Source: a phage
Sequence record: PZ445453.1
Direction: 5' to 3' (one strand)
Length of the DNA stretch: 64,000 bases
Shown piece by piece: positions 50,114-53,506 of the stretch. Position numbers and translations under genes: made by a program. Each line of letters begins with the position of its first letter. Positions within the stretch are counted from its first letter, which is position 1. A model generated the notes under the pieces. It did not search any database and was not told the DNA's origin. It saw only the letters and a list, made by a program, of their open reading frames with translations.

Positions 50114-50380
50114 ATGACAGAACGTACTTATGGTAAAGAATTGATTGAGAAGCACGTATTGATTGATAATAAAGGTGGAGCAATCTTTATTTTTGAACCT
50201 GAATCAGTTCTTACTGAAAACGAAAATGGTAGCGTTAGCCTTAAAACAGAAAGTTTGGTAATTGACTTCCTTGCTCTTCTGGATGAAATGGGGCTTCCTC
50301 ACGAAGAAGAAGCAGCTATTGCTTTGATTACAGTTCTTCTGGAGAAACGCGAAGCTGGTGAAATGACCCAGTATGCTTAA
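50114..50380 (+). CDS. hypothetical protein
   Basis: 88-aa ORF with AAGGAG RBS. Confidence 0.5.
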   Translation: MTERTYGKELIEKHVLIDNKGGAIFIFEPESVLTENENGSVSLKTESLVIDFLALLDEMGLPHEEEAAIALITVLLEKREAGEMTQYA

Positions 50381-50387
50381 TATTCAA

Positions 50388-50463
50388 GGTTCCATAGCTC
50401 ACTGACGAGAGCGCACACCTCATAAGTGTCGAGGGCAGGGATTGTAACCCTGGGGAACCACCA
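50388..50463 (+). tRNA. tRNA-Met/Ile2-type (anticodon CAT), non-canonical T-loop
   Basis: Acceptor GGTTCCA/GGGAACC, D-stem GCTC/GAGC, anticodon loop CTCATAA, T-stem CAGGG/CCCTG with loop ATTGTAA, encoded CCA. Confidence 0.5.
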
Positions 50464-50494
50464 TTTAAAAGGAGGTGCTATGCATCTCCTATAT

Positions 50495-50580
50495 GCAAGT
50501 GTGGTGGAATTGGTGATACACATTGTGCTTAAAACGCAACGCTTAAATGATTGAGGGTTCGAATCCCTCCACTTGCACCA
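50495..50580 (+). tRNA. tRNA-Leu (anticodon TAA), type II
   Basis: Perfect 7-bp acceptor, anticodon stem TTGTG/CGCAA loop CTTAAAA, 13-nt variable arm, T-arm GAGGG-TTCGAAT-CCCTC, CCA. Confidence 0.75.
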
Positions 50581-50621
50581 ATCTAGGCTTCAATTTAAAT
50601 AATATTTTTAGTAAAAATATC

Positions 50622-50650
50622 TTGACATCTACTTAGTTTTTTGTTATAGT
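50622..50650 (+). promoter_or_regulatory. sigma70-like promoter TTGACA-N17-TATAGT
   Basis: Read upstream of tRNA-like gene at 50662. Confidence 0.55.
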
Positions 50651-50661
50651 TATTGTGAAAA

Positions 50662-50743
50662 CGGGGTGTATCTCACCTGACTTCTAATCAGGCGTTAACC
50701 GAGTAATTGGAGTATGCAGGTTCGAATCCTGTCACCCCGACCA
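50662..50743 (+). tRNA. tRNA-like gene with Arg(TCT) anticodon arm, atypical
   Basis: Acceptor CGGGGTG/CACCCCG, T-arm GCAGG-TTCGAAT-CCTGT and CCA are canonical, but only 7 nt separate acceptor from anticodon stem and a 23-nt variable region follows. Confidence 0.4.
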
Positions 50744-50761
50744 AAAAGTTTTAAAAACTAC

Positions 50762-50791
50762 TTGACAAGCAAGATAGTTTTATGTTAGAGT
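50762..50791 (+). promoter_or_regulatory. promoter TTGACA-N18-(TG)-TAGAGT
   Basis: cTTGACAagcaagatagttttaTGtTAGAGT. Confidence 0.45.
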
Positions 50792-50806
50792 TAAAATATG
50801 ATAACG

Positions 50807-50896
50807 GGAAGGTAGGGCGCAGCGGTGCGCAACCAGGTTTGAACCCTGGCCCATTGTAGCGATACGGTGATGGTTCGACTCCATTATCTTCCTCCA
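50807..50896 (+). tRNA. tRNA-Ser (anticodon TGA), type II
   Basis: Acceptor GGAAGGT/ATCTTCC, anticodon stem CCAGG/CCTGG loop TTTGAAC, long variable arm, T-loop TTCGACT, CCA. Confidence 0.7.
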
Positions 50897-50941
50897 AATT
50901 CAATTAGTAACAGATTCAGGTTGTTTTGAATAATTAAAAAC

Positions 50942-51027
50942 GGTAGATTGGTGAAATGGTAGCCACAACAGTTTGCTAAACTGTCGTCGGAAACGGCGTG
51001 TAGGTTCAAGTCCTACATCTACCGCCA
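50942..51027 (+). tRNA. tRNA-Ser (anticodon GCT), type II
   Basis: Acceptor GGTAGAT/ATCTACC, anticodon stem ACAGT/ACTGT loop TTGCTAA, variable hairpin, T-arm GTAGG-TTCAAGT-CCTAC, CCA. Confidence 0.75.
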
Positions 51028-51166
51028 AGTTATCTTTAATGTAGCTTGTACTCTTACTTTAGCAGAGTAAATCTTCGGCAAGTGGCAGTAACCACTTTAC
51101 CGATATCCCATAGTCAAGTGCCGCAAACACTGGCTATTTTAAAGATAATTTATACGAGGAGGATGT

Positions 51167-51547
51167 ATGCCAAGTAATGATTATATGCGGGAATACATGA
51201 AAACTCGGTGGCAGAAGCGAAGAGCTTCCGCAATCCTCCAGCTTGGAGGTAAATGTGTTAATTGTGGGTCTGTAGATGACTTGGAATTTGATCATAAAGA
51301 TTCAAGCGAGAAGAAGTTTTATATTAGTCGAATGAGTTCATGTTCGGAGGCTAAATGGCAAGAAGAACTTGCCAAATGTCAACTTTTGTGTCATGCTTGT
51401 CACATGAAGAAGACAAGAATTTCCCAAGACATGGGAAACAGAATTAGAACCACGGTGTGTGTTTGCGGAGCAGTATTCCATAGTACAAAGGCTTATGCTG
51501 GACATACACGGTGGTGTAAAGAGTATGCATCGTTAGCCAAGCGGTAA
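51167..51547 (+). CDS. HNH homing-type endonuclease inside tRNA cluster
   Basis: CVNCGS...EFDHKD...LLCHACH; last 21 nt overlap the start of tRNA-Lys. Confidence 0.7.
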   Translation: MPSNDYMREYMKTRWQKRRASAILQLGGKCVNCGSVDDLEFDHKDSSEKKFYISRMSSCSEAKWQEELAKCQLLCHACHMKKTRISQDMGNRIRTTVCVCGAVFHSTKAYAGHTRWCKEYASLAKR

Positions 51548-51601
51548 GGCACTTGACTTTTAATCAAGGGAGCGAAGGTTCGAATCCTTCACGATGTACC
51601 A
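51527..51601 (+). tRNA. tRNA-Lys (anticodon TTT)
   Basis: Acceptor GCATCGT/ACGATGT, anticodon stem CTTGA/TCAAG loop CTTTTAA, T-arm GAAGG-TTCGAAT-CCTTC, CCA. Confidence 0.75.
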
Positions 51602-51606
51602 AACAC

Positions 51607-51693
51607 GTAGGTATCGCATAGCGGCAATTGCTGGAGACTGTAAATCTCTTGCCCTTCGGGGCTTCGTTGGTTCGAGTCCAACTACCTGCACCA
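51607..51693 (+). tRNA. tRNA-Tyr (anticodon GTA), type II
   Basis: Acceptor GTAGGTA/TACCTGC, anticodon stem GGAGA/TCTCT loop CTGTAAA, long variable arm, T-loop TTCGAGT, CCA. Confidence 0.7.
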
Positions 51694-51700
51694 AATTAAA

Positions 51701-51785
51701 GATGGATTGGCCTAGTGGTTGGGCGACGGACTGTTAATCCGTGAACGAAAGTTCTAGCAAGGTTCAAATCCTTGATCCATCGCCA
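51701..51785 (+). tRNA. tRNA-Asn (anticodon GTT) with unusually long variable arm
   Basis: Perfect acceptor GATGGAT/ATCCATC, anticodon stem ACGGA/TCCGT loop CTGTTAA, ~15-nt variable hairpin GAAC-GAAA-GTTC, T-arm CAAGG-TTCAAAT-CCTTG, CCA. Confidence 0.6.
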
Positions 51786-51864
51786 AATAGTGCTTGTAGA
51801 GTTAATAGAAACCTCTAGAATTTTCTAGAATTGTAGGTATCAAATCCTACCAAGCAAATATTTT

Positions 51865-51939
51865 GCTCCTATCGTATAACGGCTATTACGGTTGCCTTGT
51901 AAGCAACTTATCAGGGTTCGAGTCCTTGTGGGAGCACCA
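51865..51939 (+). tRNA. tRNA-Thr (anticodon TGT)
   Basis: Acceptor GCTCCTA/TGGGAGC, anticodon stem GTTGC/GCAAC loop CTTGTAA, T-loop TTCGAGT, CCA. Confidence 0.75.
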
Positions 51940-51962
51940 ATTTTAACTCTAAAGGAGTATAT

Positions 51963-52286
51963 GTGACAGAAAAAGAGTTAGAGAAATATTTTAATATCAA
52001 TGTTTTCGATGGTTTTGATGACATTGAAGATGTTGAAAGATATTATGAAGTAGAGTTAGATAAGGATAACATTGTAATTCTTTCTGCCACTTATGATTGT
52101 GCATATTATGAAGGTGAATCTCACGTTTATTTTTATGATATGAAAACATCTTTGTTTTATGAAGTACACGCATATCATTGTTCTTGTTATGGCTTAGAAG
52201 GTCAGTGGGAACCTGAAGAAATAGGTGATTTGGACTTCACTGTTGCATATCTAAACAGACGTGGTGCATCTACTATTTTAAAATAA
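51963..52286 (+). CDS. hypothetical protein inside tRNA cluster
   Basis: 107-aa ORF with AAGGAG RBS. Confidence 0.5.
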   Translation: MTEKELEKYFNINVFDGFDDIEDVERYYEVELDKDNIVILSATYDCAYYEGESHVYFYDMKTSLFYEVHAYHCSCYGLEGQWEPEEIGDLDFTVAYLNRRGASTILK

Positions 52287-52300
52287 ATATCAAAAGCCTC

Positions 52301-52330
52301 TTGACAAAGGGGCTAATAATATGTTAGAGT
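52301..52330 (+). promoter_or_regulatory. promoter TTGACA-N18-(TG)-TAGAGT
   Basis: cTTGACAaaggggctaataataTGtTAGAGT upstream of tRNA-Gly. Confidence 0.45.
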
Positions 52331-52341
52331 AATATTGTTAA

Positions 52342-52416
52342 GCGGGTATAGTGTTAATGGTAGCATATGAGGTTTCCACCCTCCAGGTGCAGGTTCAAGT
52401 CCTGTTACTCGCTCCA
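52342..52416 (+). tRNA. tRNA-Gly (anticodon TCC)
   Basis: Acceptor GCGGGTA/TACTCGC, anticodon loop TTTCCAC, T-arm GCAGG-TTCAAGT-CCTGT, CCA. Confidence 0.65.
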
Positions 52417-52515
52417 AGATTATTTAAATGGAATCGCTAGAGAAAATTTCTCTTTTCGCTCATGGTTTTCTCCTTCAAACTCTAGCGGTTCTTTTTAAGT
52501 GATTTTTAGTTTTAT

Positions 52516-52590
52516 TGGAGATTAGCCTAGTGGGAAGGCAACGGCCTTTGAAGTCGTGATGACTAGGTTCGATTCCTAGATCTCCAGCCA
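52516..52590 (+). tRNA. tRNA-Gln (anticodon TTG)
   Basis: U1-A72 acceptor TGGAGAT/ATCTCCA, anticodon stem ACGGC/GTCGT loop CTTTGAA, T-arm CTAGG-TTCGATT-CCTAG, CCA. Confidence 0.75.
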
Positions 52591-52597
52591 AGATTTA

Positions 52598-52673
52598 CAG
52601 TGCGTAGCGCAGTTGGTAGCGTGGGAGCTTTGGACGCTTCAGGTCGCAGGTTCGAGTCCTGCCGCACTGACCA
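52598..52673 (+). tRNA. tRNA-Pro (anticodon TGG)
   Basis: Acceptor CAGTGCG/CGCACTG, D-arm GCGC-AGTTGGTA-GCGT, anticodon loop TTTGGAC, T-arm GCAGG-TTCGAGT-CCTGC, CCA. Confidence 0.78.
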
Positions 52674-52678
52674 AATTT

Positions 52679-52753
52679 GCAGAGATAGCTGAGACGGATT
52701 AGTGCTACCCTGAAAAGGTAGAAAGGATGGATCGTTACCATCTCTCTGCACCA
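52679..52753 (+). tRNA. tRNA-Phe (anticodon GAA), atypical T-loop
   Basis: Acceptor GCAGAGA/TCTCTGC, anticodon stem CTACC/GGTAG loop CTGAAAA, T-arm GATGG-ATCGTTA-CCATC, CCA. Confidence 0.65.
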
Positions 52754-52830
52754 AATAACACCATCCAAGGAGTAGACTTGGTTAACTGTCAATAGCACAT
52801 TGAGGCTTCTTACAGTGGTGTACTTATTAT

Positions 52831-52915
52831 GGCTAAGTGGTGGAATGGTATACACGATACGCTTAGAACGTATTGCCCCAAGGGATTGTGAGTTCGAGTC
52901 TCACCTTAGCTACCA
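52831..52915 (+). tRNA. tRNA-Leu (anticodon TAG), type II
   Basis: Acceptor GGCTAAG/CTTAGCT, anticodon stem ATACG/CGTAT loop CTTAGAA, 14-nt variable arm, T-arm GTGAG-TTCGAGT-CTCAC, CCA. Confidence 0.75.
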
Positions 52916-53003
52916 TATCTAAGAGATATCATAGGGTTTGCAACGGATATCTACCGTCCTGTTAAGGATACCACGCCAAGACGGGTTATAAAGGGTTAGC
53001 CAT

Positions 53004-53079
53004 TGATAGTGTGAAGCTGGCGTTTCGAGTGCTTTCATAAGGCATTGCGAGAAGAGTTCGATTCTCTTACTATCAACCA
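53004..53079 (+). tRNA. tRNA with CAT anticodon (Met or Ile2-lysidine type)
   Basis: Acceptor TGATAGT/ACTATCA, anticodon loop TTCATAA, T-arm AAGAG-TTCGATT-CTCTT, CCA. Confidence 0.55.
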
Positions 53080-53094
53080 AATTACTACAGATTG

Positions 53095-53173
53095 CGCGGG
53101 ATAGAGGAGTCTGGTCGTCCTCGCCAGTTTCATATGCTGGAGATCGTAGGTTCAAATCCTACTCCCGCCTCCA
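53095..53173 (+). tRNA. tRNA with CAT anticodon and unpaired 1:72
   Basis: Acceptor CGCGGGA/TCCCGCC with C1xC72 mismatch, D-stem GAGG/CCTC, anticodon stem CCAGT/GCTGG loop TTCATAT, T-arm GTAGG-TTCAAAT-CCTAC, CCA. Confidence 0.55.
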
Positions 53174-53231
53174 ATAAATACCTCCCTTCTGGTGTAATGA
53201 TTAAGTTACATTGACACTTCAAGGAACTCAT

Positions 53232-53314
53232 AGCCGGGTAGATTTAAAAGAGTATGGTACTCAATATGGCTCCAAACCATAGATCAAGGGGTTCGATTCC
53301 TCACCTTGCTGCCA
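53232..53314 (+). tRNA. tRNA-Trp (anticodon CCA); 5' boundary uncertain
   Basis: Perfect anticodon arm TATGG-CTCCAAA-CCATA (53265-53281), T-loop TTCGATT, 3' acceptor CCTTGCT + G + CCA; best 5' partner AGCCGGG at 53232 implies ~7 extra nt in D region. Confidence 0.45.
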
Positions 53315-53319
53315 ATTAT

Positions 53320-53395
53320 TGTGGTATCGTACAGATGGTTAGTACACTCGACCGATAATCGAGAAACAACGGTTCGACTCCGTTTACCACGACCA
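53320..53395 (+). tRNA. tRNA-Ile (anticodon GAT)
   Basis: Acceptor TGTGGTA/TACCACG, D-arm GTAC-AGATGGTTA-GTAC, anticodon stem CTCGA/TCGAG loop CCGATAA, T-arm AACGG-TTCGACT-CCGTT, CCA. Confidence 0.7.
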
Positions 53396-53506
53396 AACTC
53401 CGTGCCAGCGGTGTCTTCGAAGAACAAGCCTAGTTCCTTCTGAGATGGAGGGGTGCGACTCCTTAACGCACATACTACTACTACTAAATACTTATCAGGA
53501 GATATT

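What the first reader, a model, noticed from the sequence alone, without database searches (positions are those of the whole stretch)
51167..51601. HNH endonuclease inserted in the tRNA cluster, overlapping tRNA-Lys
A 126-aa HNH ORF (DHKD...CHACH) sits between tRNA-Ser(GCT) and tRNA-Lys. Its last 21 nt, including the stop codon, are also the first 21 nt of tRNA-Lys. This looks like a mobile homing-type endonuclease whose 3' end is constrained by the tRNA.
Basis: seen in the sequence. Interest (0 to 1): 0.5.

Follow-up and report, generated by a model that had tools for sequence, protein, structure and literature searches.

The report
Mobile HNH nuclease gene abutting tRNA-Lys
A small selfish nuclease gene has inserted itself into this phage's tRNA gene array directly in front of tRNA-Lys and borrows its stop codon from the tRNA, an ordinary kind of element, although its wider protein family turns out to sit next to tRNA-Lys genes in many unrelated phages.

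Summary
ORF 51167-51547 (126 aa) ends at a TAA in the D-loop of tRNA-Lys(UUU), which spans 51527-51601, giving a 21-nt overlap. The window is Escherichia phage JohannJBalmer (phi92-like), where GenBank already calls this gene a "putative homing endonuclease".

The mobile-element reading is supported:
- Only 5 of about 178 related records carry the 373-nt insertion.
- The insertion is precise.
- The cassette is 0-1 substitutions apart in four genomes whose flanks belong to different haplotypes.
- The ORF is under purifying selection (pN/pS about 0.08).

The cassette also carries a divergent 5' half of tRNA-Lys. That variant tRNA also exists without the ORF, so it may or may not be the immunity polymorphism.

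The tRNA-encoded tail (ASLAKR) is not conserved in homologs. The tRNA dictates it and the protein tolerates it.

The geometry is not new. T5 F-TflI and F-TflII also read 14 and 23 nt into downstream tRNAs, and T4 SegB is the functional paradigm.

One result goes beyond the finding. In 80 metagenomic viral loci, relatives usually sit inside tRNA arrays, read into the next tRNA in 31 of 41 cases, and that tRNA is tRNA-Lys in 23 of 39 cases (p about 1e-11).

Verdict: a new member of a known kind, of moderate interest.

The parts
50762..50791 (+). Promoter-like site (TTGACA-18-TAGAGT with an extended TG) upstream of tRNA-Ser(tga). It is the nearest candidate promoter for a Ser-Ser-spacer-HNH-Lys-Tyr-Asn-Thr precursor transcript.
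   Evidence: Apart from a weak 9-of-12 match at 50907-50934, just upstream of tRNA-Ser(gct), there is no promoter-like site on this strand between here and the ORF, and no terminator-like site on this strand. Co-transcription is inferred, not shown.
50942..51027 (+). tRNA-Ser(gct), the upstream neighbour. In KKP_3264 and PD114 the HNH cassette follows it directly.
51028..51154 (+). Conserved structured spacer. It is present in relatives that lack the HNH gene and is not part of the insertion. It is deleted in the KKP_3264/PD114 allele.
   Evidence: The consensus fold has a 17-bp closing helix and three hairpins, with 2 covarying pairs. No Rfam family matches it.
51155..51527 (+). The 373-nt insertion that is absent from HNH-less alleles. 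The junctions are ambiguous by 1-2 nt. The ends carry an imperfect repeat, TATAC (left) and TATGC (right).
   Evidence: Alignments. The Ser-to-Lys distance is 499 nt here and 126 nt in Eryne.
51156..51162 (+). Ribosome-binding site GAGGAGG, 4 nt before the ATG.
   Evidence: read directly from the sequence. It lies inside the inserted segment.
51167..51547 (+). HNH endonuclease ORF of 126 aa (bas62_0256, annotated 'putative homing endonuclease'). The HNH core covers roughly residues 27-86 (C30, C33, D42-H43, C75, C78, H79). A C-terminal CxC...H...C zinc knuckle covers roughly residues 96-118. The tail EY-ASLAKR is not conserved.
51527..51547 (+). The 21-nt overlap. The last 6 sense codons (ASLAKR) and the TAA stop equal tRNA-Lys positions 1-21 (acceptor stem, D-stem, D-loop).
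51527..51601 (+). tRNA-Lys(UUU), 'variant' allele. G1 forms a G-U wobble with position 72. The D-arm, anticodon stem and variable loop (51537-51572) differ from the common allele of relatives. The acceptor stem and T-arm are the same.

Best explanation

Shown here:
- A 373-nt insertion carries its own ribosome-binding site and an ORF with no stop codon of its own. Translation runs 21 nt into the tRNA gene and ends at a UAA in the D-loop.
- The insertion is sporadic among relatives.
- It is near-identical on different genomic backbones.
- It is under purifying selection.
- It is always linked to an alternative 5' half of tRNA-Lys.

Inferred, not shown:
- The gene is transcribed as part of the polycistronic tRNA precursor.
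- The protein (HNH core plus C-terminal zinc knuckle) nicks or cuts the DNA of an HNH-less co-infecting relative in or next to its tRNA-Lys gene.
- Recombinational repair from the HNH-carrying genome copies the ORF together with the adjacent tRNA-Lys 5' half (co-conversion).
- The tRNA-encoded tail is a tolerated by-product of squeezing the gene into an inter-tRNA gap.

Speculative: RNase P cleavage at tRNA-Lys position 1 would remove the stop codon from the message. Only unprocessed precursors could then give released full-length protein, which would keep expression low.
For: Identity and anatomy:
- The window is 100% identical to phage JohannJBalmer. The gene is annotated 'putative homing endonuclease'.
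- The ORF, the tRNA and the 21-nt overlap are confirmed.

HNH nature:
- PHROG 4234 matches at E = 4.6e-25.
- C30, C33, D42, H43, C75 and H79 are invariant across 50 homologs.

Mobility:
- 5 of about 178 related records carry the ORF, and the indel is precise.
- Over the 447-nt cassette there are 0 substitutions in KKP_3264 and KKE7M, 1 in EC_OE_11 and 12 in PD114.
- The flanks fall into two downstream haplogroups (about 91% identity) and two upstream architectures, and HNH-carrying genomes occur in both.
- JohannJBalmer's spacer is identical to that of 92CQ, which has the common tRNA-Lys. So the ORF and the variant tRNA half moved as one segment of 418-670 nt.

Selection: pN/pS is about 0.08.

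Precedents:
- T4 SegB homes within a tRNA cluster and recognises a tRNA-gene motif (PMC2330249).
- T5 hegC and hegD read 14 and 23 nt into downstream tRNAs.

Family habit:
- About 58 of 80 IMG/VR relative loci have co-oriented tRNA genes within 1.5 kb, and 41 have one starting no more than 50 nt beyond the ORF end.
- 31 of 41 ORFs read into the next tRNA.
- 23 of 39 non-redundant downstream neighbours are tRNA-Lys.
Against: - No cleavage or inheritance data exist for this protein.
- The canonical central Asn of the HNH motif is not evident.
- The variant tRNA-Lys also occurs without the ORF in arall, alia, EmilieFrey, PaulScherrer and AV123. It may therefore pre-date the insertion and not serve as an immunity polymorphism.
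- These phages are generally mosaic, so ordinary recombination could have distributed the cassette without endonuclease-driven homing.
- The RNase P / non-stop idea rests on inference alone.
Confidence: 0.8

Rival explanations
1. The gene is a resident, no-longer-mobile nuclease gene, or a decaying homing-endonuclease remnant. Ordinary homologous recombination between mosaic phi92-like genomes passes it around, and the endonuclease plays no part in its own spread.
For: Flanking segments are themselves mosaic, with two Asn-Thr spacer haplotypes and presence or absence of a gp111-like ORF. Only one copy lineage exists in about 178 records. No exact junction match was found in IMG/VR.
Against: Purifying selection (pN/pS about 0.08) and intact invariant catalytic and zinc residues argue against decay. 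The cassette shows zero divergence across backbones that differ by about 9% nearby, which indicates recent transfer of a short segment centred on the gene. That is the typical signature of homing.
Confidence: 0.12
2. The HNH protein serves the phage itself. It could be a packaging-associated HNH working with terminase, as in HK97 gp74 or GVE2, or a nuclease degrading host DNA. Its position in the tRNA array would then be incidental.
Against: More than 95% of close relatives lack it and are viable phages. It is not next to packaging genes. Relatives across many phage lineages sit in tRNA arrays, not packaging modules.
Confidence: 0.04
3. The family acts on tRNA-Lys at the RNA level or on its expression, for example a processing or anti-defence role tied to tRNA-Lys. 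That, and not DNA homing, would explain why it sits beside tRNA-Lys genes.
For: tRNA-Lys adjacency is strongly enriched (23 of 39, p about 1.6e-11). tRNA-Lys is a known battleground: PARIS cleaves it and T5 tRNA-Lys rescues infection (PMC11464382).
Against: HNH/His-Me finger enzymes of this compact type are DNases. Sporadic presence, a precise indel and cassette identity fit a selfish element. Some close relatives sit beside other tRNAs, such as Tyr|Asn and Asn|Glu.
Confidence: 0.04

Closest known systems
T4 SegB, a free-standing homing endonuclease in the T4 tRNA gene cluster (PMC2330249)
   Same: It is a free-standing endonuclease gene embedded in a phage tRNA array and absent from close relatives. 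SegB recognises a tRNA-gene motif (the T-psi-C stem-loop) and drags neighbouring tRNA markers along by co-conversion. This is the functional model proposed here.
   Different: SegB is a GIY-YIG enzyme, not HNH. Its homing is demonstrated experimentally, whereas here it is inferred. SegB's target motif is common to many tRNAs, whereas this family is associated specifically with tRNA-Lys.
Phage T5 HNH endonucleases F-TflI (hegC) and F-TflII (hegD) in the T5 tRNA region
   Same: They are HNH genes inside a tRNA array and co-oriented with the tRNAs. Their ORF 3' ends read 14 nt and 23 nt into the next tRNA gene, which is the same geometry as the 21-nt overlap here.
   Different: They are about 193-aa NUMOD4+HNH proteins. 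Only the LE[VF]DHKD catalytic motif aligns, so they belong to a different family within the superfamily. Their neighbours are tRNA-Ser and tRNA-Gln, not tRNA-Lys.
HNH genes in mycobacteriophage tRNA arrays (Cluster M/C; PMC5966550, PMC6409571 citing Pope et al. 2014)
   Same: They are true homologs. PegLeg, Dandelion, Rizal and Catera proteins hit at 45-47% identity. The Dandelion gene overlaps tRNA-Thr. The literature already links them to tRNA repertoire diversity.
   Different: Those papers note adjacency in general terms. I found no description of a tRNA-Lys preference or of stop-codon borrowing in the papers searched.
T4 MobE and I-HmuI (HNH homing endonucleases, free-standing and intron-encoded)
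   Same: They use HNH catalysis. They act on the HEG-less allele, I-HmuI by nicking, and flanking markers are co-converted. MobE is free-standing between conserved genes (PMC2790892).
   Different: This ORF is not in an intron, because tRNA-Lys is uninterrupted. It is much smaller, at 126 aa, and carries a CxC...H...C zinc knuckle in place of NUMOD or helix-turn-helix DNA-binding modules.

Membership tests
HNH / His-Me finger nuclease superfamily | A beta-beta-alpha-metal core with the catalytic His of a 'DH' motif and a downstream metal-ligand His | tested here: met
HNH / His-Me finger nuclease superfamily | Two CxxC pairs ligating structural zinc | tested here: met
   C30 and C33 are invariant. 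C75 is invariant. C78 is conserved in at least 90% of sequences and is replaced by His in some.
HNH / His-Me finger nuclease superfamily | Score above the Pfam PF01844 gathering threshold | tested here: not met
   13.2 bits against a cut-off of 21.4, E = 0.1. NCBIfam gives no hit and a PDB sequence profile search gives none. Membership rests on PHROG 4234 (E = 4.6e-25), the motifs and the fold.
Free-standing homing endonuclease gene (HEG) | Sporadic presence among close relatives with a precise insertion/deletion | tested here: met
   5 of about 178 records carry it. The 373-nt indel has clean junctions.
Free-standing homing endonuclease gene (HEG) | Cassette less diverged than its flanks and found on different backbones (horizontal spread with short co-conversion tracts) | tested here: met
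   0-1 substitutions in 447 nt across four genomes, against about 91% identity in the downstream flank and different upstream architectures. The transferred segment is bounded to 418-670 nt.
Free-standing homing endonuclease gene (HEG) | Target-site polymorphism protecting the HEG-carrying genome | tested here: inconclusive
   All 5 HNH-carrying genomes have the variant tRNA-Lys 5' half. So do 5 HNH-less genomes. The cleavage site is unknown.
Free-standing homing endonuclease gene (HEG) | Site-specific cleavage or nicking of the HEG-less allele, and endonuclease-dependent biased inheritance in co-infection | not testable with these tools
   This needs purified protein and phage crosses.
SegB-type (GIY-YIG) tRNA-cluster HEG | GIY-YIG catalytic domain | tested here: not met
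   Only HNH families hit. The fold matches are to HNH nucleases.
T5 F-TflI/II-type HNH endonucleases | Sequence homology beyond the catalytic motif (NUMOD4+HNH architecture) | tested here: not met
   BLASTP aligns only 8-19 residues around LE[VF]DHKD, with E = 0.009-0.047.
Intron-encoded HNH endonuclease (I-HmuI-like) | ORF lies within a self-splicing intron that interrupts the host gene | tested here: not met
   tRNA-Lys is contiguous and full length (Rfam model positions 1-71, 72.8 bits). No intron family hits in 50300-53500. The ORF lies upstream of the tRNA, not inside it.

The most novel reading that the evidence does not exclude
The PHROG-4234-like compact HNH proteins may form an ancient, widespread lineage of homing endonucleases specialised on phage tRNA-Lys genes.

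- They insert flush against tRNA-Lys. When upstream of it, they usually have no stop codon of their own.
- They carry alternative tRNA-Lys segments along with them.
- They would thereby shuffle tRNA-Lys alleles between phages, including the anticodon-stem variation that decides sensitivity to tRNA-Lys-cleaving defences such as PARIS and PrrC.

In this phage, the cassette-linked allele has an E. coli-like anticodon stem (UUGA/UCAA). The common allele has a very different one.
Probability: 0.35. Interest if true: 0.6.

Novelty: new member of a known kind. Interest (0 to 1): 0.4.

Why it matters
For this locus alone it matters little. It is one more selfish HNH gene in a phage tRNA array, already labelled as such in GenBank.

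The wider pattern is more useful. A single compact HNH family sits beside tRNA-Lys genes in phages with GC content from 33% to 66%, and it routinely terminates translation inside the next tRNA. Phage tRNA-Lys is now known to be an anti-defence determinant: T5 tRNA-Lys neutralises PARIS (PMC11464382). A tRNA-cluster homing endonuclease, SegB, has been reported to amplify anti-defence tRNA genes (PMC13096335). A tRNA-Lys-linked homing endonuclease would therefore be a plausible vehicle for spreading tRNA-Lys alleles.

The BASEL collection offers a ready test system. JohannJBalmer carries the HNH gene, and EmilieFrey and PaulScherrer are HNH-less with the same tRNA allele.

The stop-in-tRNA arrangement also gives a natural case in which to ask how translation and RNase P processing compete on one transcript.

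Tried and rejected
- Pfam, NCBIfam and PDB sequence searches gave no significant family assignment. The classification relies on PHROGs, motifs and the fold.
- An exact-match scan of IMG/VR for the HNH/tRNA-Lys junction found nothing, so no further alleles came from that source.
- I looked for leftover tRNA fragments flanking the gene in 89 relative loci, to locate an insertion point inside the tRNA. Only L099 and L068 have an upstream D-arm fragment, so this is not a general feature. The window has none.
- I asked whether the variant tRNA-Lys half came in with the gene from an outside donor. The tRNA-Lys genes next to the closest homologs (58-66% identity) are no more similar to the variant than to the common allele. 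The origin is unresolved.
- I asked whether stop-codon position shows a preferred frame. The overlaps fall roughly evenly into the three frames (12:11:8), with the 10-nt mode explained by the conserved U8-A9/G-G10 'TAG/TAA'. The ORFs simply run to the first in-frame stop.
- Intron-encoded endonuclease was rejected because the tRNA is uninterrupted and there is no intron hit.
- Packaging-associated HNH was rejected on distribution and context.
- Rfam found no known family in the conserved spacer.

Full report
**Observation**

The window's 50300-53500 stretch is 100% identical to Escherichia phage JohannJBalmer (Bas62, MZ501084.1; Justusliebigvirus, phi92-like). An ATG ORF runs 51167-51547 on the + strand and encodes 126 aa. 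A GAGGAGG ribosome-binding site precedes it at 51156-51162. ARAGORN places tRNA-Ser(gct) at 50942-51027 and tRNA-Lys(ttt) at 51527-51601. Rfam's tRNA model matches 51527-51598 end to end at 72.8 bits. The last 21 nt of the ORF (GCA TCG TTA GCC AAG CGG TAA) are therefore tRNA-Lys positions 1-21, and the stop codon lies in the D-loop. GenBank annotates the ORF (bas62_0256) as 'putative homing endonuclease', overlapping tRNA-Lys in the same way.

**Is it a real HNH gene?**

- Pfam's HNH model is below threshold at 13.2 against 21.4 bits. NCBIfam and a PDB sequence-profile search give nothing.
- PHROG 4234 'HNH endonuclease' matches residues 3-111 at E = 4.6e-25. 346 database proteins match at E <= 1e-5.
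- Across 50 homologs the invariant positions are G27, G28, C30, C33, L39, D42, H43, E67, Q72-L73-L74-C75, H79 and K82. C78, C98 and C100 are conserved in at least 90%. This amounts to two zinc-ligand pairs, the catalytic DH and the distal His.
- An AlphaFold model built on that alignment is confident (pLDDT 88).
- Between the JohannJBalmer and PD114 alleles there are 9 synonymous and 3 non-synonymous changes, giving pN/pS of about 0.08. The protein is under purifying selection.
- There is one copy in the window and one in the genome record.

**Presence and absence**

A blastn search with the Ser-Lys interval found 178 related records. Only five contain the ORF: JohannJBalmer, KKE7M, EC_OE_11, Serratia phage KKP_3264 and PD114. 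A tblastn search confirmed this. Base-level alignments show four allele types.

| Type | Arrangement | Genomes |
|---|---|---|
| A | Ser, 126-134-nt spacer, common tRNA-Lys | Most relatives, e.g. phi92, Eryne, PHB05, 92CQ |
| B | Ser, spacer, HNH, variant tRNA-Lys | JohannJBalmer, KKE7M, EC_OE_11 |
| C | Ser, HNH, variant tRNA-Lys, with the spacer deleted | KKP_3264, PD114 |
| D | Ser, spacer, variant tRNA-Lys, no HNH | arall, alia, EmilieFrey, PaulScherrer, AV123 |

The insertion is 373 nt. Its ends carry an imperfect repeat: ...TTTATAC|GAGGAGG on the left and ...GAGTATGC|ATCGT on the right.

The two tRNA-Lys alleles differ at position 1 (G in HNH-carrying genomes, A elsewhere). They also differ at 20 alignment columns between 51537 and 51572, covering the D-arm, anticodon stem and variable loop. 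The acceptor stem and T-arm are identical. Both alleles fold with acceptor, anticodon and T arms, and ARAGORN calls the window's variant allele tRNA-Lys(ttt).

**Signature of horizontal spread**

Over the 447-nt cassette (ribosome-binding site to the end of tRNA-Lys), KKP_3264 and KKE7M have 0 substitutions relative to JohannJBalmer. EC_OE_11 has 1 and PD114 has 12.

The 620 nt downstream fall into two haplogroups of about 91% identity, mainly through a divergent Asn-Thr spacer at 51786-51862. JohannJBalmer is in one group and the other four HNH-carrying genomes are in the other. The 600 nt upstream come in two architectures, and HNH-carrying genomes occur in both.

JohannJBalmer's spacer is identical to that of 92CQ, and its downstream flank is 99.5% identical to 92CQ. 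Yet 92CQ carries the common tRNA-Lys. In the JohannJBalmer lineage the ORF and the variant tRNA 5' half therefore arrived together. The segment is at least 418 nt (51155-51572) and at most about 670 nt (51116-51785). This is what homing with short co-conversion tracts predicts, although general mosaic recombination cannot be excluded.

**The tail and the overlap**

The closest homologs (50-66% identity) end right after the conserved ...GHxRWCK motif. The window's EY-ASLAKR extension is not conserved. The tRNA dictates those codons and the protein merely tolerates them. Fused to the common tRNA allele, the ORF would stop even earlier, at TAG in tRNA positions 13-15.

Promoter-like sites precede tRNA genes at 50622, 50762 and 52301. 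None lies between tRNA-Ser(gct) and the ORF, and there is no terminator-like site on this strand. The gene is therefore probably translated from the tRNA precursor. RNase P cleavage at 51527 would then detach the stop codon. This is an inference with testable consequences, namely tmRNA tagging and low expression.

**Family-wide pattern (beyond the finding)**

Distant homologs in annotated phages sit in tRNA arrays on the same strand:
- Pectobacterium PcCB7V: between tRNA-Asn and tRNA-Glu.
- Stenotrophomonas Mendera: after tRNA-Lys, overlapping tRNA-Arg by 39 nt.
- Gordonia GodonK: overlapping tRNA-Val by 10 nt.
- Mycobacterium Dandelion: overlapping tRNA-Thr.
- Streptomyces Braelyn: two HNH genes around tRNA-Lys.

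In 80 IMG/VR loci encoding relatives, about 58 have co-oriented tRNAs within 1.5 kb. Of the 41 loci with a tRNA starting no more than 50 nt past the ORF end, 31 ORFs read into it. The modal overlap is 10 nt, which places the stop at tRNA positions 8-10. In 23 of 39 non-redundant loci that tRNA is tRNA-Lys, against a 13% background frequency (binomial p = 1.6e-11). A further five or so loci have tRNA-Lys immediately upstream.

The closest homologs behave the same way:
- P0003 overlaps tRNA-Lys(ttt) by 10 nt.
- P0002 and P0006 lie 14-20 nt after tRNA-Lys(ttt).
- P0004 sits between Tyr and Asn in a syntenic array.

The tRNA-Lys-adjacent members are spread over many deep clades (median 41% core identity) and over phage GC contents from 33% to 66%. 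One clade has no tRNA context and another follows tRNA-Asn.

**What is already known**

- T4 SegB (GIY-YIG) lies in the T4 tRNA cluster, recognises the T-psi-C motif of tRNA genes and homes together with neighbouring tRNA markers (PMC2330249).
- HNH genes in mycobacteriophage and mycobacterial tRNA arrays have been noted and linked to tRNA repertoire diversity (PMC5966550, PMC6409571).
- HNH genes also accompany bacterial tRNA arrays (PMC8421152).
- In T5, hegC (F-TflI) overlaps tRNA-Ser2 by 14 nt and hegD (F-TflII) overlaps tRNA-Gln2 by 23 nt. The geometry is the same as here. Those proteins share only the LE[VF]DHKD motif with this one.
- A different HNH gene occupies the Gln-Pro gap of the same array in phage ALITA. 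The array is therefore a hotspot for such genes.
- I found no paper describing a tRNA-Lys preference or the stop-in-tRNA habit for this family. The library searched is incomplete.

**Context that may matter**

[quoted passage not shown] T5's tRNA-Lys escapes through anticodon-stem changes (PMC11464382). The two Justusliebigvirus alleles differ completely in the anticodon stem. The cassette-linked allele (CUUGA/UCAAG) resembles E. coli's (GUUGA/UCAAU), and the common allele (AGGGG/CUCCA) does not. Whether this affects defence sensitivity is untested.

**Verdict**

- The element is a new member of a known kind: an HNH homing endonuclease gene in a phage tRNA array.
- The specific mechanism (target site, nick versus double-strand break, immunity) is inferred, not shown.
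- The family-level link to tRNA-Lys and the routine use of tRNA-internal stop codons are the parts worth following up.

Noticed in passing
window 51028-51154: The spacer between tRNA-Ser(gct) and the insertion is conserved in about 170 phage records. Its consensus fold has a 17-bp closing helix (GUUAUCUUUAAUGUAGCU with GGCUAUUUUAAAGAUAAU) enclosing three hairpins, two pairs of which covary. No Rfam family matches it. It is deleted almost exactly in KKP_3264 and PD114. It may be a processing element or a stable small RNA, comparable to the 'stable RNAs' annotated in the T5 tRNA region.
   Followed up: partly
window 51527-51601, compared with L002, L003, L015-L017: tRNA-Lys(UUU) is dimorphic in Justusliebigvirus: 20 differing columns in the D-arm, anticodon stem and variable loop. 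The variant allele's anticodon stem resembles E. coli tRNA-Lys and the common allele's does not. This may be relevant to tRNA-Lys-cleaving defences (PARIS, PrrC).
   Followed up: partly
window 50662-50740 (+): Rfam calls an extra tRNA here (40 bits, gathering score 29) that ARAGORN does not report and GenBank does not annotate. A near-consensus promoter-like site lies just upstream at 50622-50650 (TTGACA-17-TATAGT with TG).
   Followed up: no
window 50388-50463 and 53004-53079: ARAGORN finds two tRNA-Met(cat) genes that are not annotated in the GenBank record of JohannJBalmer, which lists 14 tRNAs in this stretch against ARAGORN's 16.
   Followed up: no
window 51786-51862: The spacer between tRNA-Asn and tRNA-Thr exists as two strongly divergent haplotypes among close relatives. 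This accounts for most of the 9% flank divergence and marks another recombination module in the array.
   Followed up: partly
window 50897-50941: Here tRNA-Ser(tga) and tRNA-Ser(gct) are 45 nt apart. Many relatives (phi92, KKP_3264, PD114, arall, EmilieFrey) have a 153-nt ORF (Phi92_gp111) at this site. This is a second indel polymorphism in the array.
   Followed up: no
window 52591-52597; L103 2403-2762: Phage ALITA carries a different HNH gene (119 aa, 33% identity over 66 aa) between tRNA-Gln and tRNA-Pro, ending 1 nt before tRNA-Pro. VEcB, ZYD and PATM also have an HNH gene annotated within this tRNA region, whose position I did not check. In this window the Gln-Pro site is an empty 7-nt gap.
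   Followed up: partly
L099 1471-1488; L068 501-519: In two metagenomic relatives, a fragment matching positions 8-25 (the D-arm) of the downstream tRNA lies just upstream of the HNH ORF. It looks as if the cassette had inserted into, or duplicated, the 5' part of a tRNA gene.
   Followed up: partly
window 51963-52286 (+): A conserved 107-aa ORF (Phi92_gp112 homolog) is embedded in the tRNA array between tRNA-Thr and tRNA-Gly. Its function is unknown.
   Followed up: no
L008 (phage 92CQ) 615-700 and 920-1005: The 92CQ record contains two copies of tRNA-Ser(gct) 219 nt apart, in a genome otherwise collinear with EC_OE_11 up to that point. This may be a duplication or an assembly artefact.
   Followed up: no
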